64,000 bases of DNA from Marsupella aquatica. Its lineage: Eukaryota; Plantae; Marchantiophyta. The position numbers and the translations under genes are program-made. Positions 31,816 through 55,016 of the stretch are shown here, piece by piece. Position 1 is the first letter of the stretch; every line of letters begins with the position of its first letter. The notes below the pieces were generated by a model that saw nothing but the letters and a program-made list of their open reading frames with translations, was not told the origin of the DNA and ran no database searches. The stretch is from NCBI GenBank assembly GCA_973895155.1, contig OZ316897.1, positions 15,685,375-15,749,374 of the forward strand, given 5' to 3'.

Positions 31816-33127
31816 CTTCGATCACACCCAAACTGTTAGATATTGCTCTAGTCTTGTGACTCATGAGCTAACCATAGTTAGTCTAACTCTGGTTAGGACT
31901 TAGCTAATGTTAGCGGTAGTGCTGGTGTGCATATAGCCAGGGCTGATGCTAGACCCTGGTGGAACTTAGGCTCATTGTTACGGAGCTAGTTGAGAGATAG
32001 GGAGAGCTTGTGCTGTGGATGCTTGGTATGGCCGGTCGGCCTAGAGTGCAGTAAAGCTCTTGTGTGTTCCCGTGGATGTAGCCTTATGTGGAGGTGAACC
32101 ACGTATCTCTCTGTGTCGACTATTGTGCGTTGGATGGTTCATGGGCTTGTCGTTGTGAATGTCATCTATGCTCAACAAGTGGTATCAGAACATGCCTGGG
32201 AGGTGACGAGGTTTTTTTGTGACAGGTTTTTTCCAGCGTTCATTGTCGATGGTACATTCGGAGTTTCATCGCATGAAACTCGAATGTGTGTGGCTGTGAG
32301 GATAGGTTAGTGAGAGGGCTTTCTAACGGTGGTTAGAACTCGCTGATCGGTATCCGTGGTGCGGAGGAATTGAAGTTTGCGTCATTCAGGGTTTATTCGT
32401 GTTTGACGGTATTTCGGGGGAGAGACCAGAGTTCGCTTTTTTCAACGGTGTGAGCTGTGCGGTACGGGAGGGATCGCACATTATAGCTCAAGTTGAAGGT
32501 TGAAGCGAGCTGGTCGTTTCGGTAGCTGGATTGTTGCTAAGTTGTTACCAAGTGCGACGTGACGAGTGAAGGAGGCGTTCAGATTTTTTCACAAGCTATC
32601 ACTGTCTAGTACATTTTGGGGCCTAGTCCGATTCTCACCTTCCGATGATGCCAAGGTTTCCGATTCTATTCTAATTGGATGTACGATCCAACCGTCCAAG
32701 CCAACGCGTATCGGACCTTGCCATTAAACTAGAATCGGACTATCACCATTCCAACCCAATCACAAACGGGCCATCACTACGATGTAGGAAAAGTTGGATT
32801 GTTTGTCCAAGCCAGAAACAATTGGACCGCTTGGTCCGATTCTTCTCCAATGCTAGATGAATTGGAATCCCTTTCCAAAGAAAAACGTAAGCACGTTTTC
32901 CGATCAAATTAGAATTGGAAGTTGCCATTCAATACAAATTGGAAGTTTTCAATGCGCATGGAATTGGATATTCCAAGGTTTTCAGGATTGGACAATTGTT
33001 TCCAAGTGGTAGGCAATGGGATTCATATTTGCAATACAAATACAATGAGATCTTGGTCCAATTGTTGGTGCAATGGACTTTGTGGTCCAACTCTTTGGGA
33101 ATTGGAAGTGTGTCTACGATTCATTTA

Positions 33128-34947: not shown

Positions 34948-36312
34948 ATTTCATGATTCACGGAGTAATGTTGGGGTGCCGTCGAAGGCACCATCGGCCC
35001 CATTGTTAGTTTAGGGTTTAGGGTTTTAGAAGCATGTGTGTGCCGCATGCTTTTAGTTTAGGGGTTTCTTAGTGAAGGGTTTAGCGGCGCCGCTAGGGTA
35101 AGCCGCCAGCGTTGTGGCCCCGTGAGGGGTGCTTTGGTGTGTTTTCTTGGTATTTAGGGGGAGAGCCCCGGAGTAGTGAGGGGGGGGGGGGAACTCAGTC
35201 TAGTGTTTGCTTAGGGAAGTTAGCTCATAGCCAGAAGAGGGAATCAAGCCAGAGTAGTGAGGTAGAGGTGTAGCACTTGCCCCAGTGAGACAGTAGTTGG
35301 GCAGACGACAGGAGGCCGGGTTGTCCTTGCAATGTGTTACGACGTTTTGCCAAAAGATATGGATTTGGTTTGATTCCTCAAGTTTTGGTGTGGTGTTACC
35401 TTTTCTGGTTCACGATTGTGTTCTTTCCCCGAGAAACGTCTAAGGAATCCTTGCACGGTTTGATCAACCATGTGAGTAGGGAGGGGTGGTGACAGCACTC
35501 CATCGACGACCAGTAGGAGTGTGTGTGTGGCGTAGTCCATGGGACTTGATCAAAAGCAGAGCGGCTAGTCGGTAGACTTGATCAAAAATTACATTTCCGA
35601 GAGCGGAAATAAACATACTCATCCTACATGCAATAGAATTCTAATAGCGTCCCTTCACGTTCCCGTCATACGATAACAAACGATTTTAGTAGGAGTAAAT
35701 ACGTATTCGTCGTGTAAATCGTTTGATAAGCAGGTGACAATTTAGAATTGGAACCTTTGGCAAGGCCAGGGCGTTATCCCTCATTTGCTCATGGAAAGTA
35801 TTGACCGGTCCTGAATCATGTGTAGCATAGCCTTTGTAGTCTGTGTTCCTAGGATGAGAAATCTTATGCCAATGGCTATTCCTATCTTTACAATGCACTA
35901 CCCTATAATGGTTACCAAAAGTTTTCGTTAAATTGTAAGTCAAAGCCTTTTGACTCGATGAAAAAAAATTCTTGCGGTCAACAAAAACAATTGTCTTCAT
36001 TGTCATCTAGGTCAAAATTCTATATATATTGTCTCCCTAAATGAACTTAAACACGCCCCAAAAGGAATTGTAGCAATTTGAGGAGGACATTGGTTTGTTT
36101 GGCGATCTAACATTGATAGATAAATTGGTTCCCATATAGTCAACATAGAGCTTTCATAATTGACCACGCAACCCAATGTCATGATACGCAAGAATTCATC
36201 AAGAATTGGCCCAAACTGTGGATCTAAATGAACTCAAAGGTGTATAAAAACCCCAGGCACTCTATAAGAAACATCAAATGTGCCTAAGGTTGCATGTACA
36301 ACGCAAGAGCTA

Positions 36313-36367
36313 AGAACTAGGAAGTTAAGCACCTATTGAGAGGAATAGTGTTTGGGATGGGTGACCT
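36313..36367 (+). promoter_or_regulatory. 5S rRNA-derived Pol III internal control region (A box, C box)
   Basis: AGAACTAGGAAGTTAAGC..TAGTG..GGATGGGTGACCT aligns to the plant 5S segment AGAACTCCGAAGTTAAGC..TAGTACTAGGATGGGTGACCT. The rest of the 5S gene is absent. Confidence 0.65.
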
Positions 36368-37844
36368 GACTTCTCTAGTAGCCCACAATCTTGCTAAGAC
36401 TTGAAGCCTCACACAAAAGAATACACCAGTTAGCTAGTGATATGCAACCCGTAGAGGAGTAGGATCAGGCCGGGGCAGCACTAGGGCCGCCGATTGGGGT
36501 AATCGCACTTCAATTTTTGATTTGATTCTAATTGGGACCCCTGTCCCATTGTAGTACAATAGCACAATAGTTTCCGATTGCGAAGTACTTGGAAATGGTC
36601 ATGCCATTCTCACATAATTGGACAATTGTTTGCCATTTCTTTTGAATTGAATGCGTCTTTCCAATACTAGTTTAATTGGACAAGTCCAATCTCGGTCCAA
36701 TAACGCTAACCCGATTGTTTGGGGATTGGATGATACGATGCGACTTCAATCGAAACATCGGTAAAAACTACAACAATCCGCCGAAGGGGTCCGATTTGAG
36801 GAGAATTGGATTAAGGGTGAATTATGTACTAGTGTATGGAGCTTGTTCTCATCTGAACCAGGTTTCTCTTCATGTTGACTGACTCGGTGGAAGAAACGCA
36901 GAGTGCCACGGCTCAACGGTTTGATCGCGGCGAGGCGGTCGTTTTGAGCTCGGGATTGACACTTGACGCGGAGTGAAGGCGTCACGGCGGAAGTTGTTAC
37001 TCTGCTGGAGCTGCAGATTGTGCCGATGAAATTTGGAAACATTTCCCGTCGGCGGCAATCTTTTTTCTTGTTTAAAACTACGGCGTTTAAGGTGTGTAAC
37101 CCGGGTTTTTTCTCATTTTTAGTGGCAAATTTTTTGGTTACTTTAGTGTGATTTTTTCCCGTCCCCCTTTGCGACACTCGGGCGAGCCGGCGCCCCTCCT
37201 CGGCGCACGGCGTCGTTAAGCCCTCCTCCCTGTATCCGACTGCCTTATACGCGGCCGTCACCCTCGTTCGCCCCCATACGCCCCTGCCCACATATCGACT
37301 GCCCCGTACGGGGTATTATTGTGAATTAAGGGGCTTAAGGACCCCCTTTAGCCCCCTTTTCCTTGTTTTTTCCTCTTTTTGGTGTTTCCTCTTGTGCCGG
37401 GACCTGCCGCCCTCCGTTTTAACCGCTCCGACAGGGGGAACGGCCCCTGTAAGACCTGTCGGACTGTGCGGGAATATTCCTAAAAAACAAAGAGCTATTT
37501 TTTGGCCGTCCGACAAAGATTCCCTCCGCCGAACGGTAACTGTTTTGGTTCTTTTTTGGTGAGGACGTTGCCCCTGGAGTTAGCAACGCGGCGCACCAAT
37601 CACATCGCGATTCCGACGACGGGTTGTACTGGGTATTTTGGTTATTCTTCGAGGTGGTCAAAACGGGGGAGTTTCCCAAGGTTTTACCCATCCCGACCAA
37701 AATTTGAATAACTTTTTCGTCGAATTTCAATTTTGATTTTGGCTTTCAGTATTGGACTCCTAGCTTTGTGGGCTACGCGGCAGTGTTGAGTTTTGAGTTT
37801 TATGAGAGGTTTCAAAAAAAGACATTTTTTTGTGATTGTTTCAT

Positions 37845-40800
37845 ATGAGTGACTCGGAGGATACTATAAGAATTGATGTCGGTGGAGCTTCAGGATCGCG
37901 ACGGTCAGACCGAGAGTCTGAGAAGGAGCTGCTACCATTTGAGGAAGAACTAGTGACACCGGTAAGATCACCGGTGCGGCATGCAGTGGAGGAAGCTGTA
38001 CTACTACCAGAGCTATCGGTAGTGGGGAAGAAGAGAGAGATGGCTAGATTTGGAGGAGTGAAGTTTGAGGTGGAGAAGTACGATGGTTGTACTGATTACT
38101 TGCTCTGGGAGAAGCAAGTGAAGGGTGTTTTACGGGCCATGGGCTTAGCTCATCTGCTCTCTTCGCGAGAGCAGTATGATGGAGAGGAGGAGATTTCTGT
38201 GAGACAGTGGAGACAGGAGCAGGTGATTGCTGTCAATGCAGTGATGCTATATCTTAAGCCGCACATCATCAAGCAGCTGGATGATACTGCGGATTGCTCA
38301 TCACTGTTCAAGGCTCTCAGAGAGAAGTATTACCGGGAAGATGCGTCAGACCGGCTATACAAGAAGTCTCTCTTGATGAGCCTCAGACTCAAGGAAGGGA
38401 GCAAGATGCAGGATCACCTGGATGAGGTTGACAGTCTAGCGGTGGATTTGTCAAACCTAGGAAAAGGAGTTGAAGATGAGGATAAGGCCTTGCTTCTGCT
38501 AAGCTCCTTACCGCCATCATATCAGGGCTTGAAATAGGTGCTCTTGTACAGAGATCTAAAGTCCATTTCGTATAATAAGGTGGTGAGCTCCTTGTTGTCT
38601 GATGATGCTAAGAAGAAGTTGGGTCAATCACAGACAACATCTTCTTCTGGCACTGCGCTCAATGTGAACAGGGGAAGAGCAGCGCAGTGCACGAATGGGC
38701 AGAACAGGTTAGATCTACATCACGGGGGAGATCTAAATCCAGAGGGAAATCGCAAGAGAGGAAGCCTCTTGCATGTTGGAATTGTGGCAAGCCAGGCCAC
38801 ATGAAAAGGGATTGTCGAGTAAAGGTCCCTACTGCCTCTGCTAACGCAGCATCGAACTCGCATGAGGTAGATTTACTCGATGATGATGACATATTGTGAT
38901 GTCAACTGAAGGTTATGCTCTCAACGTAGTGTCAAATCGAGGTAGTGATGACTGGATTCTAGATAGTGCATGTACTTTTCACATTTGCTCTAGAAGAGAT
39001 TGTTTCAGTTCTTACACGGTTTCCAACGGGTCAGTGTTGATGGGAAATAGAATCCCATGTCAAGTTGTTGGACTTGGATCTGTAAGATTTCAGATGTTTG
39101 ATGGTGCTGTGAGAACATTGAGGAATGTGAGACATATTCCCAACATGATGAAAAATCTCATTTCACTTGGAGTTTTAGAAGCAAATGGCCATCAGTGGAG
39201 TTCTGCTAATGGTGTTCTTCAGGTTTCAACTGGTACTAAAGTTGTATTGAAGGGAAAGAGACATTACAATTTATACGTTTTGGAGGGTAATGTAGTTTAT
39301 GATGAAGCCAATGTAACCTTATCTCATGAGAAGACGGCCCGGCTGTGGCACTTCCGTTTGGGCCACATGAGTGAAAAAGGTTTAGTTATTATTCAGAAGA
39401 AAGGATTACTTTCTAATTTGCAATCTTGTAAGTTGGAATTTTGTGAGCACTGTGTGCTAGGGAAGCAGCACAGGAAACCCTTCGGAGTTGGAACTCACAC
39501 CAACAAGGAGGTACTTGAGTATGTACATAGTGATGTGTGGGGTCCAGCCCCTACTCCGTCACATTCTGGACGGTTATACTATGTCACGTTCATAGACGAT
39601 TACTCAAGGTATGTGTGGATATAATTTCTACACAATAAGTCTGATGTTTTTGCCACTTTTAAGGAGTGGAAAGCCCAAGTTGAGAATCAGACTGGTAATA
39701 AGGTGAGATATCTTCGATCGGATAACGGCGGTGAATACAATTCCAGGGAATTTGGAACGTATTGTAAGGAGCAGGGGATTACCCGCCATCTCACAACAAG
39801 TTATACTCCTCAACAGAATGGTGTTTTTGAGAGACTCAACCGAACACTATTGGACCGCTCGAGGAGTATGTTGAGTCAATCATGCTTACCACATGAGTTT
39901 TGGGCTGAAGCTGTCAACACTGCAGCTTATTTGGTAAATTTTTCTCCATCCAATTCTATTGGATTCAAGACGCCATTTGAAATGAGGTACGAGCGTCCAA
40001 CAAATTACTCACATCTAAGGATTTTTGGATGTGATGCTTATGTGCTTACACCTTCCCAGCTTCGATCCAAGCTAGAGTCCAAGTCGAAGAAGTGCATTTT
40101 CCTTGGTTATCAGAAAGGTGTGAAGGGTTATAGGTTATGGGATCCAGTAACCTGTAAGCTAATTGTCAGTAGAGATGTGTCCTTTAATGAATCCAGATCA
40201 TCAAAGGAGGGGGAAAGTTCTCAGGACTCCCATACTGACAAGGGGAAATCTCCCATCCCGGACGGAGTTGAGGGGGAGATTAGTCATGATGATGTTCATG
40301 ACAGGAGAGATGGAGAAGCATCGGGCTTGGAGCTGGTTCCTGTGATGGAACAAGAGGAGCAGATTGTTGCTGGGGTACTCAAATTCAACCAGCAGCAGTA
40401 GTAGATCAGCCTGAGTCATCTACTAGAAGAACTTCCAGTCGTTCTACTAGAGCTCCTACCAGGTATGGTCAATGGGCAGACTCATCTTAGCTAGATGATA
40501 TTGATATTGCACCTGATGATGATGACATGGCTTTGATCTTGGAAGAATGAGAGCCTTCTTCGTATAGTGAGGCTTGTGCTTCAGAGCAGAAGCATGAGTG
40601 AAATACAACAATGCAGAGGGAGTTGCAATCTTTGAGTGACAACAAGACATGAGAGCTGGTGAAGCTTCCAAGAGGTCAGCAAGTGGTGGACAACAAGTGG
40701 ATTTACAAGTTGAAGGATAGTCCTTCAGAGGATGGAGACAAGATCTACAAGGCAAGGCTTGTTGCCAAGGGATTCACTCAGGAGAAAGGAGTGGATTACA

Positions 40801-42117
40801 ATGAGGTCTTTTCACCGGTGGCTAAGTATTCCACAATTCGGATCTTATGTCAACTTGTTGTGTTTTTTGGTCTGGTGATGGATCAGATGGATGTTGTTAT
40901 TGCTTTTCTTTATGGCAACTTGGAAGAGATGATCTTCATGAGACAGCCACTAGGCTTTATGAAGAAGGGCCAAGAAAACTTAGTTTGTAGATTGCTCAAG
41001 TCCTTGTATGGATTGAAACAGTCTTGATGAACAAGCGGTTTGATGATTTCATGCTTGCTCAAGGTTTTACAAGGATGGTGTATGATCCTTGTGTGTATAC
41101 GAAATCAGTCAAGAATGATGTATTTGGTTTCATCATTCTGATGATCTATGTGGATGACATGCTGATTGTGGCTAAAGATCAATCTGAGGTTGATAGTCTC
41201 AAGGCGAAATTGAGTGCTGAATTCAGGATGAAGGATCTTGGTAAGGCCAAGAGGATCTTAGGGATGGAGATTTTTAGGAACTCTGAGACTGGACAGTTGT
41301 GCTTGAGTCAAGGCCAGTATGAGAGGAAAGTACTTGCACGATTCAACATGGAGAACTGTAAGCCAGTGAGTATTCTTTTAGCTTCACATTTCAAGTTATC
41401 ATCGACTTTCTCTCATACGGATGCTGTGGAGAAAGGTCAGATGGCTAAGATTCCTTATGAGAAGGCAGTAGACAGTCTGATGTATTTGATGACTTGTACT
41501 AGGCCTGACTTGGCCCTAGCGATGGGCAAGGTCAGCAGATTCATGTCAAATCTAGGGAAGGTACATTGGGAAGCTGTGAAATGCATTCTTAGGTATGTGA
41601 GGGGAACACAGGACTATGGATTACTATTTGATCTAACAGATCAGATAGAACGTTAGTTGGCTATGTAGATTCTGACTATGGAGGCTGTCTGGATACAAGG
41701 AGGTCTACAACTAGGTTTGTATACACTCTTGGAGGAGGATGTATCAGTTGGAAATCTACCTTGCAGAAGTGTATATCTCAGTCTACTATAGAAGCAGAGT
41801 ATGTTGCAACAGCAGAAGCAGCAAAGGAAGCAATTTGGTTGGATAAGTTGATTGCGGAGATGGGTTTAGAGCATGGCAAAATGACTCTAAACTGTGATAG
41901 TCAGAGTGCTCTTCACTTGGCTGCTAACCAGGTGATGGATAGCAGGGTGAAGCACATTGATATTAGGTACCATTTTATCAAGCAAGCAGTCTCTGATAAA
42001 ACTTTTGAGCTAGTCAAGATTGATGGAAAGCTCAATCCCGCTGATGCTTTTACCAAAGTGATTCCTTTGGAGAGTTTTTCAAGACACCGTGCCACTTTGC
42101 AGGTTTTGCGGTTGTAG
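37845..42117 (+). pseudogene. Copia-A gag-pol (Gag, CCHC, PR, IN, RT, RNase H), broken by stops and frameshifts
   Basis: FEVEKYDG, CWNCGKPGHMKRDC, WILDSACTFH, LWHFRLGH..CEHC, HSDVWGP, LRSDNGGEY, PQQNG, YKARLVAKGFTQ, YVDDML, EAEY, CDSQSA, KHIDIRYHFI, NPADAFTK. Confidence 0.93.
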
Positions 42118-43842
42118 TGCAAGTAGAGTTATTAAGCAATGTGTGACTATTTGTATATGGATTACTCATTCCTGTTAGGCTACGGCTTAGTTCTAGTTAA
42201 CCCTTAGTTAACCCTTGTGGTTTTTAGGGGGAGACCTGGTTTGGTGATTGTCTAGAACTTCCCGCTGAGGATTCCATATGGTAGCATTTAGTCTAGTCTC
42301 CAAGACAAGAGTCAAGGGGAAGTTTGTTAGATATTGCTCTAGTCTTGTGACTCATGAGCTAACCACAGTTAGTCTAACTCTGGTTAGGACTTAGCTAATG
42401 TTAGCGGTAGTGCTGGTGTGCATGTAGCCAGGGCTGATGCTAGACCTTGGTGGAACTTAGGCTCATTGTTACGGAGCTAGTTGAGAGATAGGGAGAGCTT
42501 GTGCTGTGGATGCTTGGTATGGCCGGTCAGCCTAGAGTGCAATAAAGCTCTTGTGTGTTCCCATGGACGTAGCCTCATGTGGAGGTGAACCACGTATCTC
42601 TCTGTGTCGACTATTGTGCGTTAGATGGTTCATGGGCTTGCCGTTACGAATGTTGTCTATGCTCAACACAAACGCATAGTCGTCCTCCTGTATGGAGGGC
42701 CCTCTGGGTGTGGTACTCCTGCTCTTGAATCAACCTTCTACATATGGTCACATCACCAAAAAATGAAGTTTTTACGAATAAATGTCTAAGACCAGATTTG
42801 GAAATCCTGCGATGTCTACAGGAGTTGATCGAACGGACAGATTTGGAAAGCACTGCGTTGTCTAGTTGGTCAAACGGGCCTTAGACTATTGAGATGTGGT
42901 CTCTTGTATTTACAACACTATTCGATAAACTTACATTAATACAGACCTGGCTACTACCTTAATTACCGAGAAGGGGAACCGCATCCTCGTCACAATGGTC
43001 GTACACATCGAAGAAACTACTCTCTGATGACAACTCCTTTCGAATTGTCACAAATCGATGACGACCATGCTACTTTCGGAGCTGCCACAGGCTCAATTCC
43101 TACACCATGAATCAACTTTGGGGTCGTCAACCTCGTTTCCACGAACTGGTTCCATATTCAAATGACCCCCACAAACATAAATCTTCCCATATACGATGTT
43201 AAGATTAAAATCTTGTCTGGATTCTGTCATATTTGCACATTGCTTCCATTTCCTGTGTCCTGCCAAATCCAACATATATACAGTATTGAAACTTCGCTAT
43301 GATTCCTCATTCTGTACGACCGTGCTCCTTCCAAAATGTACATTTTGCAATCCATCAAAACACATCGGCAGCGAACTGGGAATCGTGCGAACTCTCGCAT
43401 CGTGGACTAGGTGACCTTGAAGTTGAAGAAAATTTTCTCATGTATATTAGTCCCCTAACGATGGGTCATTAAGTACAGGTCTGGGACGAGAGAGTCCCGC
43501 AGAATACGAGTTGATAAGGAAAGCATGACTGGACAGGAGAGTTGCAACGAGACTAGACAGAGCGGACAAGAGCTGCATGCAGCGTGCCTAATATAACCAG
43601 GCAGCCCACCTTAAACAAAGGGAGCCTGGTTGTCCTAATTAATCCCGGTCAGCAAGATTTACGTATGCTAAATTCCAACACCCCCTCTCGAGCTAGGCTC
43701 GATAGAAACTCAGACACAACTGTCATAGAGGTGAGGTAGAGAATCTACACAATCAATAAGTGGTAAGTAAGGTTGATAATGTACCCCGATGGGTAGAGAG
43801 CTCAATCTAAGACTAGTCGATTGAGTGTCAAGCAGGGGGAAG

Positions 43843-44328
43843 ATGGCCCAGAAGAATATCACACTGCGAGAGTCATGTATCTTTTTGTTGCTGGCAGTGA
43901 TGGGATTCGTCTCTACGTTCCTGCGATATCTACACAGTTTGTTGCAGTCGGCTGAGGGGCCAGCAGATTCTGCTGGTGACAATTGTTCAGAGACGGTGAA
44001 TGGATCAGGGCTAAACGAGAAGCGGCAGTCTCAAGAACTTGTAACAGTGCCAGATGTCACAGCAGTGTCAAGTCGAACGTCAGATTCAGTCTATGCTCCT
44101 CCGCTAGACAGCCCAGTTGGCCTAAGTGACATGCCACCGCGGCGCTATTATGCAGTAGTGGTTGGATTTCGACCAGGCATCTACTTATCGTGGGAGGAGT
44201 GTCAGCCTCAAGTCTCAGGATTTAGAGGCAACAAATTTAAGTCGTTTAGAACTCAATCTGAGGCAGAAGAGTATTTGAGCCGTGAGACTAGTCTGCTTGG
44301 TCGGACTGGTGGAAGACGAATGGTGTAG
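43843..44328 (+). CDS. Antisense accessory ORF of Copia-B: hydrophobic anchor + RNase H1 N-terminal/caulimovirus viroplasmin domain (161 aa)
   Basis: CIFLLLAVMGFVSTFLRYL hydrophobic segment; S/D/P-rich linker; YYAVVVGFRPGIYLSWEECQPQVSGFRGNKFKSFRTQSEAEEYL matches the HBD/Cauli_VI pattern YYAVxxGxxxGIYxxWxECxxQVxGFxGxxFKxFxTxxEA. Confidence 0.8.
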   Translation: MAQKNITLRESCIFLLLAVMGFVSTFLRYLHSLLQSAEGPADSAGDNCSETVNGSGLNEKRQSQELVTVPDVTAVSSRTSDSVYAPPLDSPVGLSDMPPRRYYAVVVGFRPGIYLSWEECQPQVSGFRGNKFKSFRTQSEAEEYLSRETSLLGRTGGRRMV

Positions 44329-44385
44329 GTGAAAGTACTAGATAGTATGTTTACCAAGAGAATTCCACGAAGATTCAGAAGTGTA

Positions 44386-47300
44386 TCACCGCGTTATAAT
44401 TGAAGATGGTTCAATCGTTGCAAGTTCTTTTGCTGACCTCATTCCGATTGCTTGCCGATGATGCTCAAACTTGATTCTCGGTAGAACCTTCGTGAGGATG
44501 TCGGCTGGTTGATCATGTGTAGAGACATGTTGAACTGAAAGCTCACCAGCTAGTACTCGCTCTCGTATAAAGTGGTGATGAATTTCCAGATGCTTGGTTC
44601 TTGCGTGGAAGACAGGAGTTTTTGCTAGTTTCAATGCACTGATGTTATCGCAGCTTAGGTGCACGTCCTGCTGAGTGGGTATATGAGCAGTTGAGAGATC
44701 AGATGCAATCTTGGCATCCTTGCACTTTATATTGGCCGGTGTGAGTTTTTGTTGTCGTAGCTCCTCAATAAGGCGTTTCAAATAGACACCCTCTTGAGCT
44801 CCGTCTGACAATGCCTGGTACTCAGCTTTGAACAGTGGTTGACCTAGACACCGTGGGTTGCCGCTTGCTGCTCCATGTGATCGGTCCTGAGGCAAGGGTG
44901 AACAGGTACCCTCTTGTTGACCTTCTCGTATCGGAGCATGAGCTTCCCCAGTCTGAATCTGTGAATCCTTGTAGCTTAATGTCGGGATATTGTTGAAAGA
45001 ATATCCCAAGGTCTTTGGTGTTACTGATATACCTGAGGATGTGAATTGCTGCTTCCCAATGGGCTTGTTGGGGTTGAGACATAAATCTACTGACAAGTCC
45101 TACCGCAAACGAGATGTCGGGCCTTGTATTGGTCAAGTAAATGAGTTTTCCTACAAGTTGACAATATGTTGTTGAGTCGATATTGCTGGTGCCAGTCTTA
45201 GCCGAGAGTGTGAGCCCTTCGGGAAGTGGAGTTTTTGTTGGTCTGCACTCGATCATATTGTAGTCTGGCAGCAACTGTGTCGAGTACTCAGTTTGATGCA
45301 TGAGTATTCCTTGATTATTCACCGAGAAGTCCACCCCGAGGTATCTTTTCACCGGCCCTAGATCTTTCATTTCGTACTTCGCGCTCAGCTTGGCCTTGAG
45401 ATGATTGATTAGATCCTTGCCGGTACCAGTGATGAGAAGGTCATCGACAAACAGCAGTATCACTACTAATTCTCCATCCGTTTTACACACATAGAGATTT
45501 GGATCAAGAGAGCTTCGTTCACAATCAATTGAACGAAGAAAGGAATCTACCTCATCATACCATGCTCGTGGACTTTGCTTGAGTCCATATATGGATTTGA
45601 GAAGTCGACATACTAGATTCTCCTTCCCCTTGACTTCGAAACCCGTTGGTTGATCCATGAATATAGTTTCCTTGATTGTTCCATTCAAGAAGGCTGTTAC
45701 CATGTCCATTTGAGAGATTGACCATCCGTACGCAGCAGCTAAGGCAACTATAAGCCTTACAGTGGACCATCTCACCACTGGTGCAAACGTTTCCTGAAAA
45801 TCCAGTCCCGGTCTTTGCTCATTCCCTCTGGCCACTATTCATGCTTTGTGTCAGATGTTTCCCTCATGATCTATCTTATTCCTGAGAATCCACTTGGAAG
45901 AGAGCGATTTCTCACCAGGTGGAAGCTGAACCAAATCCCATGTGCCGTTGCGCTTGTGAGCATCCATCTCTGATTTCATTGCTTCTCTCCATTGCGTGTC
46001 TTGGATGGCGTCTTCGAGGTGGATGTTGTTTGAAGATTCAGCTAGTAGTGCAATGGCAATATCCTGATCTGCAGTTGCAACATACATATGATGACCCAAA
46101 AAACGGTGATTATCTAACCTGATTCGAGTGGAAGGAGGTCGGCATGGCGGTAGAGGCTTGGATTTGAGTAGTCGTGTGGTGATTGATGGAGCCGATATAT
46201 CTGGAGTATGCTGGAGTGGCTCCTGTACTTCTTGATCTTCCGATTGATTTTCTGCTTGAGGGCCCATGTCCGGGCCCATGTCTTCTCTTTCTTCTCGTTC
46301 TAGTGTTGAGTCCCCCTCTTGAGGGTTAATGAGACCCTCACTGACAAGAGAGGGAGATGGGGTTGATGAGATTTGGTCATCAAAAGAAAATACATCAAAG
46401 AGACTGATAGATGAGTGGGGTACAGAGGAGAAGTCCCCAGGTGTGGTTTCATCAACTATTACATCATGACTTATAAGAATGCATCGGCGAACTGGGTCGT
46501 AACAACGGTAGGCTTTGCTTTGTTGATCGTAACCGACTAGAACGGATTTAATAGATCGGGCTCCAAGTTTGCGACGTAGATGTTTGGGGACATGGACAAA
46601 GGCAGTACTGCCAATGATACGAAGGTGTTTAAGATAGGGATTCTCATTGAAGAGAGCTTGATAGGGAGTGCTTTGATTAAGTGCTCGAGTGCTGCAGCGA
46701 TTGTTGAGATAGTTAGCAGTGCCAACCAGTTCTCCCCATAGAAAGGCGGGAATATTTGACCCAATAGAGAGACTACGAACAATGTTGAGAAGTGTTCTAT
46801 TTTTGCGTTCTGCAACTTACTCCATTTTGGTGAGGCGTATTGGCGACTGTGAGCTGACGGCGGATGCCGTGAGCGGTCAAGTACTGTGTAAAAGAATGAG
46901 ATAGAAACTCTCCTCCGCGGTCGCTCCGAAGACATGAGATTTTGTGAAGGAACTATGTCTTGAGACTTTGAAGGTTTTAAATGTGTCAAAAGCTTGGTCT
47001 TTGGTTTTGAGCAAGTAAACCCAAGAGTGACGTGAATAGTCATCGATAATGGTCATAATGTACCGATGTCCATGCGGGGTGACCACAGGAAGAGGTCCAC
47101 ACAAGTCGATGTGTAAAAGTTGAAGTGGTCGAGTTGACCTATGGCCTGATGCTTTGGGAATCTTTTGTCGATGATGTTTCGCTTGGACACAGGTTCCGCA
47201 AAGGTGGTGGGACAGTGGTATCATAGGAGTGCCGTTCACGAGTTGATTTTTTGTCATGTAATTTAGCCGTTGAAGACTGGCATGATCGGTCCTCTTGTGC

Positions 47301-48923
47301 CAAAGCTCACAGGTTGAATGTGGAGTGGATGTCGACTGGATCATGTTGCATGCTGTTGCCATGTGTTGGTGTTTGAGGAGACGGCTTGTGTCGTAGGTGC
47401 GAGTGGAGTCGATACCGTCGATGTCGGGACACTGCGGTAAATTGAGACGATATAGTCTACTGTGTGGATCTCGAAATCCTTTGAGAAATGTCTCAAAAGG
47501 TTTTCGATGGTCCATTATATAGCAGTAGTCAGAGTTGAACACGACGGTGTGACCCTTATCGGTTAGCTTTCCTATTGACATTAAGTTCCTAGTTACTCCC
47601 GGCATGTACAAAACATCAGAGAGAACTTTATTTCCAGAGATTTTGATGTGGCTAGTGCCAGATGTAGGCAACTTGGTTCCACTTGCCGTCAAAACATTGG
47701 TGCCATTTGACTTAATGGCGCTGAGCTTTGAGAATGACTCCTTATCATGAGAGATGTGAGTCGATGCTCCTGAATCTAATATCCAGGATTGTGCTTTGCC
47801 AGAGCTTCCTCATTCAAATTCAGTTAACATGGCCTCTATGGTTAGTGCAGACTTAGACCCACTATCCTCACCTTTGTCAGAGTCGCTATCACCTAAGTTG
47901 GTGCCTTCGGTGGAAAGATAGGACTTTGGGGCTGAATCCTTGAGATCTTTTTCCCTTGAGTGCATATCCCGAAGCTGAGTTACGCTCATGTTTTTGACTT
48001 CATGGTTGATTTGCTTCAGGAAGCAGTCTGCCTCCCAGTGGCCTCGTCAACCACAGTAGTTACAATTGTTGTCACCATGACCAGCTCCTCGTCCACGGGC
48101 TCCACCGGGGGCTGCTCTTCCTCGTCTGGCACGGCCCCTGCCTCGCCCTCCTGCATCATATTGACCGCCTGTGTTGTATTGACGTTGGTGAGTCATGAGC
48201 AGGGAGATCTCTTCTGAGTCATGACGAGGCTTGCGTTGCATTTCTTCAGCTTGGAGGTACTCCTCCAGATCTGCAAAAGTAGCATTTGTGTCTTTTGCAT
48301 ACAGGACACCGTAAATAGACTTGAAAGAAGACCAACTATCGGGTAAATTCCTGAGGACGATCTGAATCAGATCTTTATCAGGAATCTCTTCACCTACACA
48401 TCCGAGCTCCATGACGTGACGATCAACTTTCTTAAGATAGTCTTCTACCGAAGTGCCTTCAGTCATCTTGTACGTGCTCAACAAGGACAGACTTGAGATC
48501 GAGTATTCGCTGTAGAGCTGATGGCTCGTATTTTCGTTTGAGTGTTGCCCAAAGCTTGGACGGATCAGCACGTAACCTACGGACAGTAGGAAAGATGGAT
48601 GTGGTTACCGTCTTGGTAATGATGATTATTACCCGTTCTTTGTGTTTGTCGAGATCGGTGTTGGCTGCATCGGGAACTCCAGCGGTGGACCCACTGCTTG
48701 TAGATGCTCCAGACACTTGAGCTGACGAAGATCCCGATGCTGCCTGAGTGCTGGTTCCACTGCCCGTTCCACTGCTCCCATGGGTGGCAGGATTGACGAT
48801 GTACCATAGACCTTTCTCCCTCAGAATCTGTTCGAGGACGAATGCCCACATCGTGTAGTTCTGAGCGCCAACCAACTTGTCACTGTCTGAGAAAGTGATC
48901 TTGGTGGCGTCGGACGAAGACAT
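44386..48923 (-). pseudogene. Copia-B gag-pol, broken by frameshifts and stops
   Basis: KLVGAQNYTMW, CNYCG, WILDSGASTH, LWHKRTDH..CGTC, LHIDLCGP, SSKWI, RG.EQRPGLDFQETFAPV, LFVDDLL, GFTDSDW, CDNISA, RTKHLEIHHHFIRE, DQPADILTK. Confidence 0.93.
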
Positions 48924-51900
48924 CTTGTGAGCTTGAGATCTAGAAAGCCTTGAGCTCTGATACCATGAATAAAATTTTCTCATGTATATTAGTCCCCTAA
49001 TGATGGGTCATTAAGTACAGGTCTGGGACAAGAGAGTCCTGCAGAATATGAGTCGATAAGGAAAGCATGACTGGACAGGAGAGTTGGAGCGAGACTAGAC
49101 AGAGTGGACAAGAGCTGCATGCAGCGTGCCTAATATAACCAGGCAGCCCACCTTAAACAAAGGGAGCCTGGTTGTCCTAATTAATCCCGGTCAGCGAGAT
49201 TTACGTATGCTAAATTCCAACAGAAGTGCCTTTTGCCAACCAGGACTCAGGGAATGTAGGGTCGGGATGTCTGTCCAAGAAAGCTTTGGAGTAATCAAGT
49301 TCAGGGTGATGTCATTGGGGATGCCTGGTAAAAGTTCTTCCTTGAGATCGTTATAACTCACCGGTGGCACCACGGTCAACCATTCTACTGAGACAAACTT
49401 TCCACTGCGCAGCTCCATGTTCCTGCAAGCAGTCAATCGTCTGTAATCGGTGCAATATACATTGCTCGAATCGTCTGTAATCGGTGCAAATTATACATTG
49501 CTTGAAGCCTAAGTTTTGTTTATGAATGAATCAAATGTCCAGAGCGGGATTGACGTTGCTCCTCTGGTACTCAATCCAAACATGTTCATGCTTGAACTCA
49601 TTTTGAAACCCTCTATGAGTCCCCTGCAAACCAGGGTCCTCTGGTTGAGTTCAGGTGTGTACCAATTGTCGTTGTCCTCAGGAACTTTGATGCTTTAAAC
49701 AAAAGGGGAAGCCCACACTCCTGAAGGGTCAACTTGGAACCTACAGTAGGGGGCAACACAAAGTCAAGATCCAGATAATGGAAAATGATCCAAGAGAAAG
49801 AGTCTAAGATATGGAAATCCTGGGCCCTCACTCCTTGTAAATTGTTTTATTGGGTTACTGGTGAAACTTTTAAAACTAAATTCCAAATAAAAATACTAGT
49901 CCTTGATCAAGCGCTAGCTTCCACATATATTAATTAAGAGTAGGAGCCCAGGGTAACTATGGAATGTATCAAAACTAAAAACTGCCTTTTTCTGGTAGCA
50001 ATAATTAAGATACTGTCATAGTTGGACTCATTTTGAAACATGATTTGATCCCCATTACTCAGTGGTCCTAATGAGCCAAATGGATGACCAAAACAACTTT
50101 CAAACTTGGGGGATAAATTTTGCTCCTACAAGGGTCTTTTATCACTACATTAGCTTGTTTGCAGGACAAAAGAATTTTAAAATAATCATTAAATTCCTGA
50201 AATGCTAACTAGGTTAAATAGTTGCCCGGCTAGCTGTAGATCCTTATATTAAAAAAAACCATCTATGCTGGCTAGGTTCATTGTAGACCCCTACTAACTT
50301 AACTGACAAAGGAATTATTTGCATCAACCATGTACGTGTGCAATACAACTTGGGCCCTCAGGTCCCGCCCCCAGGTATACTACTCTTCTTTCATTTTAGA
50401 CTCAAAGCAAAATTGTCACATCCCTGGGTATAGTAGGAAATAAATTTTATCTCACCTTATGCAGGACTTTACCTAGTTCAATGCAGGTGTTCTTATTTGA
50501 AAAACTTGGCATGAGTTTGCCCCGGACTGTCATCAGAGTCCCTGTTGAAGCTGAACTGTAAATGGTACTACTGCTCGGACGTAAATTTTTTTTTGGTATT
50601 CAGGAATTGGCTTTCCTGAAGTCTACACTAAGTGCTTATGAACCTTATGAACAGGTCACACTTAATTTGCTTAGTCTACGCAAAGTGTCGTTTCCCACGC
50701 AAATGAATTAACCTTGGTTAGTTTTCGAGTATAATGTTTCCTTTATTTTCTACTAGATAGATGCCCAATTGATCTGTCAGATGCAGTTCCTGCCTATAAT
50801 TGTGGAGAAAGTCTTAGATTCCACGAAATCCTAGTTGTACATGAGCATATGAAGGAATCCTAGCTGTAGATGAGCATATGAAGGCATTGAACGACATTCA
50901 AAGTTGTCATAAGCAGACGCATCCCTCCTAACTTACAAGTTAGATAATGAAGAGGTCTATAAAAAACAGTGCTACCTAAGAATTTTCTGAACTGAATATG
51001 AAGAATCACAAGGTGTTCGATAGCAATGCAGTGTAATCGATTAGAAAACTCTGAACAAAAATGTTTTCCAACTAATTGAGTGAGTCCTTTGAGCAGTTTC
51101 TAGAGTATTCAAATTTCCCTTACAGTCTTGGGTGTCAAGTAGCCGCGTAATGAGAGGCTGTTGATGTGCTTTGATTGAGAACTGTGTAACAGGGTTAATC
51201 TGTTGTCCTCTCTTGCTCATATTTCTTTTAATTTATTTGTATAGTGTTTAGTTGATTGATTGAAGATTAATGAATGGGTGCCATTGTTTGAAAAGCTTTA
51301 GTTCTATGCGGGGAAAATGAAAAGCTTCCTGAAACCGTATGGCCATGAAAGTACGAATTGCACCAGTCCGTTGGTGATTCTTCTTGATAGTTGCCGACCT
51401 ATGGAGGAAACCTTGATGTTCAATTGGCTAGGCTAACCTTTCGTTCATACCACGAGCCACAATATGCAATCGCTGACAATCATTATGGAGTGTACATGTC
51501 AATTGGTCAACGAAGCTACGATTCCGCCAGTGTCTATTTATCGGTGGACACTGCCAATCATTACGGTACTACTCCAAACTGGCTTGTTCTCATTCAGTAA
51601 GAGGACGAAATCACAGTCATTGAGGAGGCCTGCCCCCCGGCCCCCCCGGCATGCCCTTAGTACGTCTACTTGACCTGTGTACTGAAGACATGTGACCTTC
51701 TAGATAATGCCTAGCTCCGAATCATTGCATCCATGCACAGATAGCAATGGGAAGGGCCTAAGCCATTCTGTGATCATGAGGACCAGGACGTCCTGAACGT
51801 GCAGTGGAGAACGGCTGCCAAATGTGCATCCATAATGCATTTTATGTACATCTTGTCTGAGTTGCCTCAGTCGGACACAATACTAACTTGAATGACTGGT

Positions 51901-52988
51901 CTAGTCCCGTGATTTCCACTCGTACATCGATGTTTACACAACACACATGTTTGACCACGGAGTTTGGCCAAAGGTTAATTTTGTTTACGCTGCGGACCGG
52001 TCACAAGCTCGGCGTTTCGTCGCAAGTGTCTATCTGTCCAGGATGCATTAAGGACTAGTGAGAGTAGGACCAATGAAGATTGATTTGTAAATAAATGACC
52101 CACATGAAATACCCACAAAACCTATTTTCTGTAGCAGGTTCCAGGCTAGGTCGTAGATTAATGCTGGCACCCAGCCTGACTATGAAGGGTTCATGAATTT
52201 CTATGCCGTGACTGTTATTTAATTTCTTATAACCTGAGCATTGAATAAAAACGTGAATGTTCACCATTAAGAGTGACCACTATCCATCTCAGAGCTGGCA
52301 ACTAAATTAGCAATTTGAGAGAGTTTAGTTGAGCACAAGTTTTTGACTGTTGTCTAGTAATGCCCAATACTCAAGGTTTAGAGGTACCAATGGACAAGCG
52401 AAATGCGCTGACGAAGACAACATAGTTACATGTCTGAACATGGTAGCTTCAATACAGCAGCTACAACAGACGATCGCGTGCACTGTAGTATTTCATCGCA
52501 GCTGTTATCAGACTCTAATCCAGTGCTGCGATTTTTTACTATGGCTCTTGGATGATCTGTCGAGCTAACGATGGAGTATGTATTGTACTTATTGTACGAA
52601 TTGACAAGCTTCAAATCGTATTTATTTCCAGTCACATTCGGAATAAGCGCTCGGTTGTGAAAGCAATTCAACCGACGGAGTGAGAATCGCGCTCTCAGCT
52701 CGGCTGTACATGAAAGCAGGTCAACAAGATTCTAGGCTCTAGCTCCAGCGTGTCTGATCGAACATGATCTTTCCAATCAATTCCAAAGAGCAAGCGCGTT
52801 CTCGTGTCTCCTGATCGCCACGAGGCTGTGTATATATATACACACATATGAGCCCCAGCCTGAACAGCCAAGTGCCTTTTCGAAGTGTATTGCCCGTAAT
52901 TCAAACTCTTTTCTGTTTTGTGAGAAGTCGGTGACTGTGATCAGCCGGTTCAGCTGGATTCAAATTCTCTTTAGTGCTTATTGAGATC

Positions 52989-55016
52989 ATGGATTTCAAT
53001 ACACCAAGTGTAAAGTTCGGTGTCCTTCTTCCGGTTACCTCCAGAGGTCTCCGAGGCAAAGATGACTGCATTCTTAATCTCAGGAACTTTTCAAAGAGCC
53101 TCAAAGAAACAACGGAAGGAGACACATGTCCATGCGATGTCTGCGAGGTCCGTAATGTCGGATACGAGCTGAAAGTTTATATTGGTGTTGATGAGAGTGA
53201 CAAGTTCCTGTCAAGCAGCAAGATAGTTGAGCAGGTCCTTATAGAGCATGGAATTGAAAATATGGAGACGATGGTGTTCTTCTACCCTCCTGGCTCTATG
53301 TGTGCAATATGGCGGGACCTTGCCAGGAGAGCGCATACAGATCAGTGTCACTACACAGTCCTTCTGGGTGACGACATTGTTCTCAAGACTCCAGGTTGGA
53401 TGTCCAGCTTCGACAGAGCGTTCTGCGAGTTGGAATCTAAGAGAGGAGTCCCTCGAGGGTTTGGCTGTATTGCTTTCTCCGATGGCTACTTTCCTGGATT
53501 CCCGACCTTTCCTGTCATGGGGCGAATTCATTTGGAGATATTCGATGGAGAAATCCTTCCGAAGGAGTTTCATAACCAAGATGGCGATCCATATCTGTTT
53601 CAACTATATCGGAGATGGGGCTGTTCCGTAATGCTGAAAGACGTCGTTTTAGAAAACACAATGGGTGGAAGCAAACAGCCCCGCTATCGAAAGAAACATC
53701 GTCATGATTGGACATTTTCTGCCCTTGACGATGGTGTTGCGAAGGTTAGACGGTGGCTGACGCAACACCAGAGTACTCTATCACAAGATTTTCCTCTTGA
53801 AATTCTCACTTTGGACGTTGTAGTCCCCACTTTCCGAATCCCACTCCTGGGTATCGAGAACATCATCAACCTGGAGCGGTCTGAAACTTGCTCGACCATG
53901 ATCATACTCATAGTCGACGACCCACTCTCTCTAGACATTCCGGAGCTGAAGAAGCGATACGAACACGATGCCTTCATTCGCATCCGGGTGAACGTTACCA
54001 ACACAGGTGCAAGTGAAGCTCGTAATCGCGGGTTAGCAGAATCAGCTGCGGACTACGTCCTATTCCTCGACGACGACGTCGTTCCTGATCCTCGTATTCT
54101 TCTGGAAGCAGAAAAAATGATTCGGCGATATCCTAAGGCCTGTGGGTTTGTTGGCCAGACCGAATTCCCAGATCCCACAAACAGCGTAGTCTCGAGTGCA
54201 GTAGTGATGTCAGGTGTGACATTCTTCTGGGGTGTGACTAAGTACTTGAGCAAAGATATACCCTGGGGAGTCACTGCAAATCTCCTGATTCGACGCAACA
54301 ATGATGAGATTTGGTTCGATCCCAGATTCCCCAAGACGGGTGGAGGAGAAGACATCGATTTCTGTCTACGGAAGCGGGAGGCTCATGTGAAGCTGGTAGA
54401 TTGTGGAGAGGGCTTCCGTGCGGCGCCAAACATGATTGTCACTCATCCTTGGTGGAACCATGGAAGACGCTCGTTCAATCACTTCCGGGGCTGGGGAATT
54501 GGCGATGGTGCTCTTATAAAGATGTACCCTCAACTTACTTACTGGGATAAAGCCCCAAATAGTGCCGAGACACTACTCCTTACGGTATTTCTGTTCACAG
54601 TTACAGCTACTGTGAACATAGTTACACCTTTTGCCAATACGTGGGGGAGTTCCCATCGGATTGTGCACCTCTTACTCTTGGCCATACCCGAGGTCGTCAT
54701 GGCCAACGTGCTGTATGACATCCACCGCCATGTCTTCAGCACAGACAGGCATCACTATCTTCCGGAATTGAGAGGCTTTGGCCGAATTCTGGCTGCAGGA
54801 GAGTCAGCAGTGGTGAGAATGTTCAGTGAGTGGGGGAGACTGGAGGGGATGATTCGACGAGGAGAGTGGAGTTGCATTGGTTGGAGATTCGATTGGTTCG
54901 CTGGGCGGTTCGGGGAAGCACCCCCAAACACAGAACGCAAGCACACTTATAGCCGGTTCCTGCTTTGGTTGCAGTTTCTCTTCATCACAGTCGTTTGCAG
55001 CTCGATCTGCTCCTAA
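52989..55016 (+). CDS. Two-domain GT-A/GT2 glycosyltransferase with C-terminal TM helices, intronless (675 aa)
   Basis: Domain 1: VLLPVTSRG..YIGVD..VLLGDDIVL..FPTFP..NQDGDPYLF. Domain 2: LDVVVPTFR..LIVDD..NTGASEARNRG..VLFLDDDV..GGEDIDFC. Hydrophobic segments at the C-terminus. Confidence 0.88.
   Translation: MDFNTPSVKFGVLLPVTSRGLRGKDDCILNLRNFSKSLKETTEGDTCPCDVCEVRNVGYELKVYIGVDESDKFLSSSKIVEQVLIEHGIENMETMVFFYPPGSMCAIWRDLARRAHTDQCHYTVLLGDDIVLKTPGWMSSFDRAFCELESKRGVPRGFGCIAFSDGYFPGFPTFPVMGRIHLEIFDGEILPKEFHNQDGDPYLFQLYRRWGCSVMLKDVVLENTMGGSKQPRYRKKHRHDWTFSALDDGVAKVRRWLTQHQSTLSQDFPLEILTLDVVVPTFRIPLLGIENIINLERSETCSTMIILIVDDPLSLDIPELKKRYEHDAFIRIRVNVTNTGASEARNRGLAESAADYVLFLDDDVVPDPRILLEAEKMIRRYPKACGFVGQTEFPDPTNSVVSSAVVMSGVTFFWGVTKYLSKDIPWGVTANLLIRRNNDEIWFDPRFPKTGGGEDIDFCLRKREAHVKLVDCGEGFRAAPNMIVTHPWWNHGRRSFNHFRGWGIGDGALIKMYPQLTYWDKAPNSAETLLLTVFLFTVTATVNIVTPFANTWGSSHRIVHLLLLAIPEVVMANVLYDIHRHVFSTDRHHYLPELRGFGRILAAGESAVVRMFSEWGRLEGMIRRGEWSCIGWRFDWFAGRFGEAPPNTERKHTYSRFLLWLQFLFITVVCSSICS

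What the first reader, a model, noticed from the sequence alone, without database searches (positions are those of the whole stretch)
43843..44328. Copia retrotransposon carrying an antisense, membrane-anchored RNA:DNA-hybrid/dsRNA-binding (viroplasmin/RNase H1-N) gene
Seen: between the pol stop (44386) and the PPT/3' LTR (43689-43424) of Copia-B lies an uninterrupted 161-aa ORF on the opposite strand, while gag-pol of the same element carries several frameshifts and stops. It encodes an N-terminal ~19-aa hydrophobic helix, a disordered S/D/P linker, and a C-terminal ~45-aa domain (YYAVVVGFRPGIYLSWEECQPQVSGFRGNKFKSFRTQSEAEEYL, about 44146-44277) that keeps the Tyr, Trp and FK residues. Known: this pattern is the hybrid-binding domain of eukaryotic RNase H1, shared with caulimovirus P6/TAV viroplasmin (Pfam Cauli_VI), and it binds RNA:DNA hybrids and dsRNA. 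CaMV P6 builds replication factories and suppresses silencing. Copia RNase H lacks this domain. Known extra ORFs in plant LTR elements are mostly sense env-like (SIRE, Athila) or antisense ORFs of Gypsy/Tat. Inference: a possibly undescribed copia accessory system transcribed from an antisense promoter in the 3' LTR. It could tether reverse-transcription intermediates to a membrane, supply RNase H with a hybrid-binding module in trans, or sequester dsRNA as an anti-silencing factor. The short ORF could also have stayed open by chance.
Basis: partly seen in the sequence, partly recalled or inferred. Interest (0 to 1): 0.9.

Follow-up and report, generated by a model that had tools for sequence, protein, structure and literature searches.

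The report
Copia retrotransposon's antisense hybrid-binding accessory gene
A jumping gene of the copia type, probably from a liverwort, carries on its opposite strand a small extra gene for the RNA:DNA-gripping module of RNase H1 joined to a predicted membrane anchor; relatives have kept both parts while the spacer between them drifted, so it is likely a working accessory gene, which would give one of the unexplained antisense genes of plant retrotransposons a testable biochemical job.

Summary
Confirmed. A complete copia element (43424-49222, minus strand; LTRs 10/257 different, 5-bp target duplication, PBS, PPT) carries an antisense 161-codon ORF between pol and the 3' LTR. It encodes a hydrophobic N-terminal helix, an acidic disordered linker and an RNase H1 hybrid-binding domain (Pfam Cauli_VI, E 5.6e-20; model 0.7 A from human 3BSU), with no nuclease. 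That the ORF is open in this copy proves little (chance about 0.43 at the gag-pol damage rate). The real evidence is five full-length homologues at 35-49% pairwise identity, one from the liverwort Calypogeia fissa: 41% identity in the helix, 15% in the linker, 71% in the domain. Two diverged relatives in public contigs keep pieces of the ORF at the same place; 0 of 80 distant copia loci carry the domain. The homologues' DNA context, expression, membrane insertion and binding are untested. Most likely role: a membrane-tethered clamp for the element's duplex nucleic acids at particle-assembly sites. A silencing shield is the main rival. Antisense extra ORFs are known from gypsy elements; I found none with this domain, or in copia, in ten literature searches. 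New variant of a known kind.

The parts
43419..43423 (.). target-site duplication GAAGT (left copy)
43424..43680 (-). 3' LTR (257 nt, TG...CA); holds a TATA-like TATATTA on each strand (43443 on +, 43595 on -), so a two-way promoter is possible (inferred)
43681..43689 (-). polypurine tract
43690..43842 (+). leader of the antisense ORF; two upstream ATGs (43779, 43789) lie between a GTAAGT donor-like site (43763) and a CAG just before the start: possible short leader intron (untested)
43843..44328 (+). antisense accessory ORF, 161 aa, start in a strong context (AAGATGG)
43864..43953 (+). residues 8-37: predicted 30-residue helix; residues 12-30 uniformly hydrophobic (predicted membrane anchor), conserved in sequence
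43954..44133 (+). residues 38-97: acidic, predicted disordered linker, variable in length and sequence among homologues
44143..44274 (+). residues 101-144: RNase H1 hybrid-binding domain (Cauli_VI, PF01693)
44275..44325 (+). residues 145-161: helix extension and basic GRTGGRR tail, partly conserved
44386..48923 (-). gag-pol (gag, protease, integrase, RT, RNase H) with 2 frameshifts and 6 stops; the RNase H carries a 24-residue insertion shared with its closest relatives
48954..48965 (-). primer-binding site TGGTATCAGAGC (3' end of initiator tRNA-Met; assignment recalled)
48966..49222 (-). 5' LTR
49223..49227 (.). target-site duplication GAAGT (right copy)

Best explanation
This copia element carries an antisense extra gene for an RNase H1-type hybrid-binding domain without nuclease behind a hydrophobic helix, and its protein likely acts as a membrane-tethered clamp that would hold the element's own duplex nucleic acids (RNA:DNA hybrids of reverse transcription, paired stretches of the genomic RNA) at the sites where particles assemble. 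Shown: element anatomy, ORF, domain, fold, a protein family with conserved helix and domain, and pieces of the ORF at the same place in two diverged relatives. Inferred: that all homologues sit in copia elements; transcription from the 3' LTR or the leader on the opposite strand; insertion of the helix in an endomembrane with the domain facing the cytosol; clustering through the helix, which would give a weakly binding single domain avidity; binding of hybrid or dsRNA; a benefit to transposition. In layout it works like a miniature N-terminal third of caulimovirus P6 (self-association region, spacer, same domain), but it is not a P6 member.
For: Domain and fold: (3BSU, rmsd 0.7 A over 45-47 residues, probability 1.00, E 0.001). 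Family: P0002, P0003, P0004, P0006, P0054 cover the whole length; pairwise identity 35-49%; pooled identity to P0001 71/175 in residues 1-35, 48/310 in the linker, 189/265 in residues 98-150; helix-to-domain spacing 59-76 residues, frame kept. The helix match is not just hydrophobicity: 0 of 2000 shuffles of the hydrophobic core reach the score for each of the 5. All 5 have a window of 1.9-2.1; only 3 of the other 150 domain-bearing hits have any window above 1.8. In close copies all 5 changes in codons 10-25 are silent (region picked after seeing the data). Linkage: a 3082-nt contig about 84% identical in RT joins the PPT side to 44194-44228 (inside the domain) and then to pol; a 4593-nt contig about 80% identical joins the PPT side to 44299-44322 (the tail) and then to pol. 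A further diverged contig reads as RGFQPGIYET...KTRAEAVDF, with 4 of 6 identical residues in the first stretch using another codon (read by eye). P0054 is from Calypogeia fissa, and so are the nearest named pol relatives (60-67% in RT). Control: 0 of 80 distant copia loci carry the domain, 53 of them with at least 700 nt after RNase H. Known: yeast Ty1 assembly foci are nucleated at the ER (PMC3945221, abstract); a single human domain gives diffuse signal where three in tandem give foci (PMC10639055, passages); P6 self-associates through residues 1-110 and reverse transcription occurs in its inclusion bodies (PMC5670102, passages). Foldseek against viral models ranks caulimovirid P6 first, several aligned over 150-214 columns.
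Against: No DNA context for any of the full-length homologues; the C. fissa ORF accession (CAM6101554) is not next to the four C. fissa pol accessions seen, and the contigs differ. Within close copies the ORF shows 7 silent and 10 amino-acid changes, one a stop (CGA to TGA), not different from neutral (P 0.22). The domain in the 3082-nt relative looks decayed (Leu at the Trp site), and P0004 has Arg there. Ser replaces human K60, half of a pair whose double mutant loses binding (PMC10639055), although Ser is common there in nature (113 of 351 segments; 10 of 39 in RNase H-linked proteins). Reverse transcription happens inside particles, where a membrane-bound protein may not reach the hybrid. 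Stand-alone copies of the domain also ride on DNA transposons that do not reverse-transcribe (Helitron capE, PMC4289320, passages), which points to a more general role. The long P6 alignments have rmsd 18-37 A, so only the domain superposes, and its sequence is closer to phage and bacterial RNase H domains (up to 51-55%). The helix could be a soluble oligomerisation helix or a signal peptide.
Confidence: 0.42

Rival explanations
1. Silencing shield. The protein is a sink or coat that hides the element's dsRNA or hybrids from Dicer-like enzymes, RDRs or host RNase H1, independent of particle assembly.
For: No nuclease domain; antisense transcription itself would make dsRNA; the yeast domain prefers dsRNA (PMC7657459, passages); stand-alone versions occur in a fungal Helitron (PMC4289320), in Basidiomycota clusters of 109-241 aa and, by an unchecked note of this scan, in a mushroom DNA transposon.
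Against: The same domain in CaMV P6 is reported dispensable for RNAi suppression (PMC5902531); the human and fly domains bind dsRNA weakly (PMC7657459); this copy looks methylation-decayed (8 of 10 LTR differences are transitions, 5 of 6 stops are TGA); the conserved helix is left unexplained.
Confidence: 0.22
2. Protein-recruiting module. The domain binds host proteins (ribosomal proteins, TOR-type kinases) as the P6 domain does, and the helix brings them to ER-bound ribosomes translating the element's RNA.
For: In P6 the same domain binds TOR, eL18 and eL13 (PMC5902531, passages); an invariant FRGN surface motif found only in the family and one other of 351 segments; Ser at the K60 site.
Against: The nucleic-acid contact residues Y, W, F/K are kept and the domain plus tail carries net +4 to +7; P6 needs further domains for its translation role; gag-pol here is a single frame in intact relatives.
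Confidence: 0.1
3. RNase H helper in trans. The domain is supplied to the element's RNase H, which lacks one, to raise processivity during reverse transcription.
For: Copia RNase H has no such domain; this lineage's RNase H has a 24-residue insertion that could be a docking site.
Against: In RNase H1 the domain works by being covalently tethered; no pol relative carries it fused (0 of 12 scanned); the conserved hydrophobic helix is not needed for this.
Confidence: 0.08
4. Self-restriction. The protein binds reverse-transcription hybrids or strands the RNA on membranes to limit the element's own copy number.
For: Antisense position; nuclease-less binder could act as a competitor; the family looks low-copy (few contig variants). 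Self-encoded restriction in yeast Ty1 is known (PMC13709905, search listing only).
Against: Long-term selection on an inhibitor carried by the element is harder to explain; no direct sign.
Confidence: 0.08
5. Passenger. A captured host or fungal gene fragment, or a small nested element, rides along without use; the homologues are host genes or parts of other elements.
For: Open frame is unremarkable in this copy; close copies do not differ from neutral; context of the full-length homologues unseen.
Against: Mosaic conservation over 35-49% divergence, in-frame length changes, same-place pieces in relatives about 80-84% identical; no catalytic domain or introns; no repeats marking a nested element in the 696 nt among repeats of 60 nt or more.
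Confidence: 0.1

Closest known systems
Antisense extra ORFs between pol and the 3' LTR (aORF-3R / eORF-3'R) of plant Ty3/gypsy elements: Grande gene23, RIRE2, Retand TRP28, Ogre, bean ORF2 (PMC7264820 main text; PMC11963269 and PMC4093653 passages)
   Same: Position, orientation, conservation across a family, unknown function, proposed accessory role.
   Different: Those are gypsy elements with long (2.9-6.6 kb in Retand) 3' regions and TRP28, plant-mobile or SMC-like domains. Here a compact copia element with a 696-nt region and a domain of known biochemistry. In REXdb eORF-3'R is listed for copia only in 1% of SIRE and no Cauli_VI hit is tabulated, but that survey counted only ORFs of 250 codons or more and domains seen in 5 or more elements.
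Hybrid-binding domain of RNase H1 (human 3BSU, yeast 1QHK; PF01693)
   Same: Sequence, fold, Y29/W43/F58/K59 equivalents.
   Different: No catalytic domain; C-terminal, behind a hydrophobic helix; Ser at K60; encoded by a retrotransposon.
Caulimovirus P6/TAV viroplasmin
   Same: Accessory protein of a plant reverse-transcribing element; same domain about 100 residues behind an N-terminal self-association region; separate transcript.
   Different: P6 is 420-540 aa with further RNA-binding and assembly domains; only the domain superposes; domain identity is higher to phage and bacterial RNase H; here antisense and with a membrane-like helix.
Stand-alone viroplasmin-domain genes of fungal DNA transposons (Pleurotus Helitron capE, PMC4289320; Basidiomycota Cauli_VI clusters)
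   Same: Nuclease-less domain carried by a mobile element; small proteins.
   Different: DNA transposons, fungi; no shared N-terminal helix was shown; capE was seen in one Helitron copy.
env-like ORFs of SIRE (copia) and Athila; sunflower Athila 14 antisense ORF with one TM helix (PMC11728184, passages)
   Same: Extra ORF after pol with a transmembrane segment.
   Different: SIRE env-like ORFs are sense and much longer; the Athila ORF is gypsy and has no known domain.

Membership tests
Ty1/copia LTR retrotransposon | Domain order gag, protease, integrase, RT, RNase H | tested here: met
Ty1/copia LTR retrotransposon | Paired TG...CA LTRs, 5-bp target duplication, PBS and PPT | tested here: met
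Bryco lineage (REXdb) | PBS for a half tRNA-Met (100% of 6 elements) | tested here: not met
   PBS starts TGG and matches the tRNA-Met 3' end (tRNA assignment recalled)
Named REXdb copia lineage (Lyco, Gymco, Ale, Ivana and others) | Placement among REXdb reference domains | not testable with these tools
   No REXdb set held; quick RT tree places it in a 5-row group (SH-aLRT 99) with three C. fissa proteins and one Logan protein
aORF-3R accessory genes | Antisense ORF between pol and 3' LTR | tested here: met
aORF-3R accessory genes | Present in most copies and conserved like other element proteins | tested here: inconclusive
   Close copies cover the ORF in 4 of 4 runs and two diverged relatives keep pieces in place; whole ORFs in whole elements seen only once (this window)
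aORF-3R accessory genes | Own antisense transcript | not testable with these tools
   No RNA run was offered
RNase H1 hybrid-binding domain (PF01693) | Profile score above the curated cut-off over the full model | tested here: met
   71.7 bits against 21, positions 1-44 of 44
RNase H1 hybrid-binding domain (PF01693) | Three-strand, two-helix fold of 3BSU | tested here: met
RNase H1 hybrid-binding domain (PF01693) | W43 and K59 binding residues | tested here: met
   W117, K133; W in 6 of 7 and K in 6 of 7 family members
RNase H1 hybrid-binding domain (PF01693) | K60 | tested here: not met
   Ser in 7 of 7; Ser in 113 of 351 related segments
RNase H1 hybrid-binding domain (PF01693) | Binds RNA:DNA hybrid or dsRNA | not testable with these tools
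   needs a binding assay
RNase H1 enzymes | Catalytic RNase H domain after the binding domain | tested here: not met
   only Cauli_VI found; ORF ends 17 residues later
Caulimovirus P6/TAV | Full-length multi-domain protein of 420-540 aa in a pararetrovirus genome | tested here: not met
   161 aa in an integrase-bearing LTR element
Caulimovirus P6/TAV | N-terminal self-association region | tested here: inconclusive
   similar layout only; long Foldseek alignments have rmsd 18-37 A
env-like ORFs (SIRE, Athila) | Sense orientation after pol | tested here: not met

The most novel reading that the evidence does not exclude
A liverwort copia lineage has evolved its own miniature viroplasmin: an antisense, membrane-anchored, self-clustering hybrid/dsRNA clamp that builds a protected replication site. 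It would be the same solution as caulimovirus P6, reached separately, and together with the fungal DNA-transposon cases it would make the nuclease-less RNase H1 binding domain a recurrent accessory and counter-defence module of mobile elements.
Probability: 0.3. Interest if true: 0.85.

Novelty: new variant of a known kind. Interest (0 to 1): 0.63.

Why it matters
Antisense extra genes of plant LTR retrotransposons have been known since the 1990s, and a 2020 review (PMC7264820) calls their origin and function unknown. This one is made of a domain with a solved structure, known ligands and known knock-out mutations, so binding, location and effect can be tested directly. It extends the class from gypsy to copia, shows that surveys with a 250-codon floor miss such genes, and links retrotransposon accessory genes to pararetrovirus P6.

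Tried and rejected
No whole genome is held for the window. No RNA holder listed: no evidence on expression either way. Scans for the ORF family found nothing in viral contigs or metagenome contigs; the RT found nothing in viral contigs. Accession look-up did not place the C. fissa ORF next to a pol gene. The complex predictor was not available, so self-association of the helix is untested. The Atlas answered once for the whole protein and not for the N-terminal part. PHROGs: no match for 7 of 7. Plasmids: 31 records, domain only, under 60% identity. The careful RT tree did not finish; the quick tree is quoted. Contig depths were not used as copy numbers, only to tell contigs apart. The primary paper on the human domain-hybrid structure was not held, so residue roles come from PMC10639055 and the alignment. 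REXdb additional files 1 and 3 (per-element table, sequences) were too large to read and could list rare hits; bioRxiv supplements are closed. Rejected: the intact frame as evidence of selection; a host RNase H1 pseudogene (no catalytic part, family-specific helix); Bryco (PBS type); P6 membership. No tree of the 44-residue domain was built, so its donor (bacterial, fungal, viral or host) is open. I did not date the insertion, having no liverwort rate; LTR distance is 0.040 (K2P).

Full report
Observation. The ORF at 43843-44328 (+) is as described: 161 residues, no stop. It lies inside a complete copia element on the minus strand, 43424-49222. The LTRs are 257 nt with 10 differences (8 transitions, K2P 0.040), GAAGT flanks both ends, a PBS follows the 5' LTR and a purine tract precedes the 3' LTR. 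Pfam finds gag, protease, integrase and RT pieces in copia order. Comparison with intact relatives shows 2 frameshifts and 6 stops. The ORF fills most of the 696 nt between the pol stop and the PPT. The element landed in a kelch-repeat gene copy whose paralogue lies at about 60800-61900.

The protein. Residues 101-144 match Cauli_VI over the whole profile (E 5.6e-20) and the human and yeast RNase H1 N-terminal domains. An AlphaFold model from 7 sequences has a confident helix at 8-37, a low-confidence linker and a confident domain that lies 0.7 A from 3BSU. Y103, W117, F132 and K133 match human Y29, W43, F58 and K59; the K60 site is Ser, as in 113 of 351 related segments and 10 of 39 segments from RNase H-linked proteins. 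Residues 12-27 are evenly hydrophobic (moment 0.16), as a membrane helix would be; the linker is acidic (net -7) and the domain with its tail basic (+5). There is no catalytic domain.

Is it under selection? Close copies in four public runs (two studies; one may be the window's source) show 17 changes in the ORF, 7 silent and 10 not, one of them a stop; this is no different from neutral (P 0.22), as expected of copies decaying after insertion, though the five changes in codons 10-25 are all silent. The case rests on homologues. Two word-based searches and one full HMMER search (best 150 of 5109 hits shown) gave five proteins that match over the whole length and one partial. The seven are 35-49% identical to each other. 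Against the window's protein the five score 41% in the first 35 residues, 15% in the linker and 71% in the domain region; spacing varies from 59 to 76 residues with the frame kept. The helix match survives shuffling of the hydrophobic core (0 of 2000 for each). Neutral DNA does not age like this.

Is it part of the element family? Partly shown. Laying public contigs on the region gave two diverged relatives. One (3082 nt, 80 differences in 492 nt of RT) runs from the PPT side into 44194-44228, inside the domain, and on into pol. The other (4593 nt, about 80% identical) runs from the PPT side into 44299-44322, the tail codons, and on into pol. A third contig encodes a more distant version of the domain with silent changes, context unknown. 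One full-length homologue is CAM6101554.1 of the liverwort Calypogeia fissa, and the nearest named pol relatives are also C. fissa, 60-67% in RT, grouping with the window's RT. Their accessions are not adjacent, so linkage in C. fissa is not shown. The other homologues come from unnamed contigs of 1.3-5.5 kb. That the host is a liverwort is inferred from these names. Of 80 distant copia loci none has the domain; 53 had 700 nt or more after RNase H. None of 12 pol relatives has it fused. The closest pol relatives share a 24-residue insertion in RNase H.

How it likely works. A nuclease-less binder on a long flexible arm behind a conserved hydrophobic helix is built to hold duplex nucleic acid at a membrane or in a cluster. 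One human domain alone gives diffuse signal in cells where three in tandem give foci (PMC10639055, passages), so clustering through the helix would matter. Yeast Ty1, the model copia element, nucleates its assembly foci at the ER (PMC3945221, abstract). CaMV P6 has the same domain behind an N-terminal self-association region, and its inclusion bodies host reverse transcription (PMC5670102 and PMC5734791, passages); P6 proteins head the viral fold search, though only the domain superposes. I therefore favour a tether or clamp for the element's hybrids and paired RNA at assembly sites (0.42). All steps past the sequence are inferred. A possible antisense TATA box lies at 43443, but seven ATGs precede the start, so an internal start or a short leader intron would be needed.

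Rivals. A silencing shield (0.22) fits the stand-alone domain in a fungal Helitron (PMC4289320, passages), the small Basidiomycota proteins that are the Atlas's nearest clusters (score 0.92) and an unchecked note of this scan on a mushroom DNA transposon; those elements have no reverse transcription. Against it, the P6 domain is reported dispensable for RNAi suppression and binds TOR, eL18 and eL13 (PMC5902531, passages), which raises a protein-recruiting role (0.10). Ligand preference varies: human and fly domains favour hybrid, yeast dsRNA (PMC7657459, passages). Help for RNase H in trans (0.08), self-restriction (0.08) and passenger status (0.10) remain.

What is known. Antisense ORFs after pol are an established class, with function unknown (PMC7264820, main text and part of the references). 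The examples I could check are gypsy: Retand with TRP28 (PMC11963269, passages), 15 bean families (PMC4093653, passages), a sunflower Athila ORF with one TM helix (PMC11728184, passages). REXdb lists 3' antisense ORFs for copia only in 1% of SIRE and no Cauli_VI hit, but it counted ORFs of 250 codons or more, tabulated domains seen in five or more elements, and its main text does not mention Marchantia (PMC6317226, passages and additional files 4 and 5). Ten full-text searches (five aimed at this combination: 11, 21, 43, 63, 94) listed no paper on a hybrid-binding or viroplasmin domain in an LTR element's extra ORF. Passages of bioRxiv 572842 and PMC12885004 added nothing. The library lacks most subscription papers, and two REXdb supplements could not be read.

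Verdict. Real, conserved and, as far as searched, undescribed: a new variant of a known kind. Confidence that it is a selected accessory gene of this copia lineage is about 0.85; confidence in the specific mechanism is about 0.4. Interest 0.63.

Noticed in passing
window 44620-44720 (-), RNase H of the element: A 24-residue insertion before the CDN motif, shared with P0197 and P0203 (and a 19-residue one in P0235) but absent from 18 proteins of the sister group; it looks like a duplicated strand segment and may mark the lineage.
   Followed up: partly
window 42670-43423 and 49223-49480 (-), paralogue at about 60800-61900 (+): The element inserted into a kelch-repeat (probably F-box/kelch) gene copy; both flanks match the paralogue at 81-83%.
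   Followed up: partly
window 31834-42670 (+): A second, unrelated copia element with LTRs about 97% identical and about 10.8 kb in length; gag starts only near 37840, leaving about 5.5 kb of 5' internal sequence unexplained. A further LTR copy lies inverted at 27170-27498.
   Followed up: no
window 20283-23501 (-): A 1073-codon frame for a PPR-E-E+-DYW protein (organellar RNA-editing factor type) with 303-nt internal repeats.
   Followed up: no
window 9825-11522 and 15558-17147 (+): Two tandem Hsp70-like frames that match only the first 485-490 of 599 profile positions: C-terminally short or spliced.
   Followed up: no
window 52941-55016 (+): An uninterrupted 691-codon frame with a glycosyltransferase family 2 domain at residues 293-403 and an unannotated N-terminal half.
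   Followed up: no
window 28884-30347 (+): Uninterrupted pectin acetylesterase frame, with an inverted partial match at 56046-56196.
   Followed up: no
window 43443-43450 and 43589-43596 (both LTRs): The same TATATTAG word occurs once on each strand of the LTR, facing inward, which would suit a two-way promoter.
   Followed up: no
proteins P0035, P0134, P0135, P0137, P0148, P0153: The same binding domain occurs in pairs fused to PIF1 and UvrD helicases, and in arrays of up to 8 without nuclease (P0012, P0013), showing it is a mobile module.
   Followed up: no
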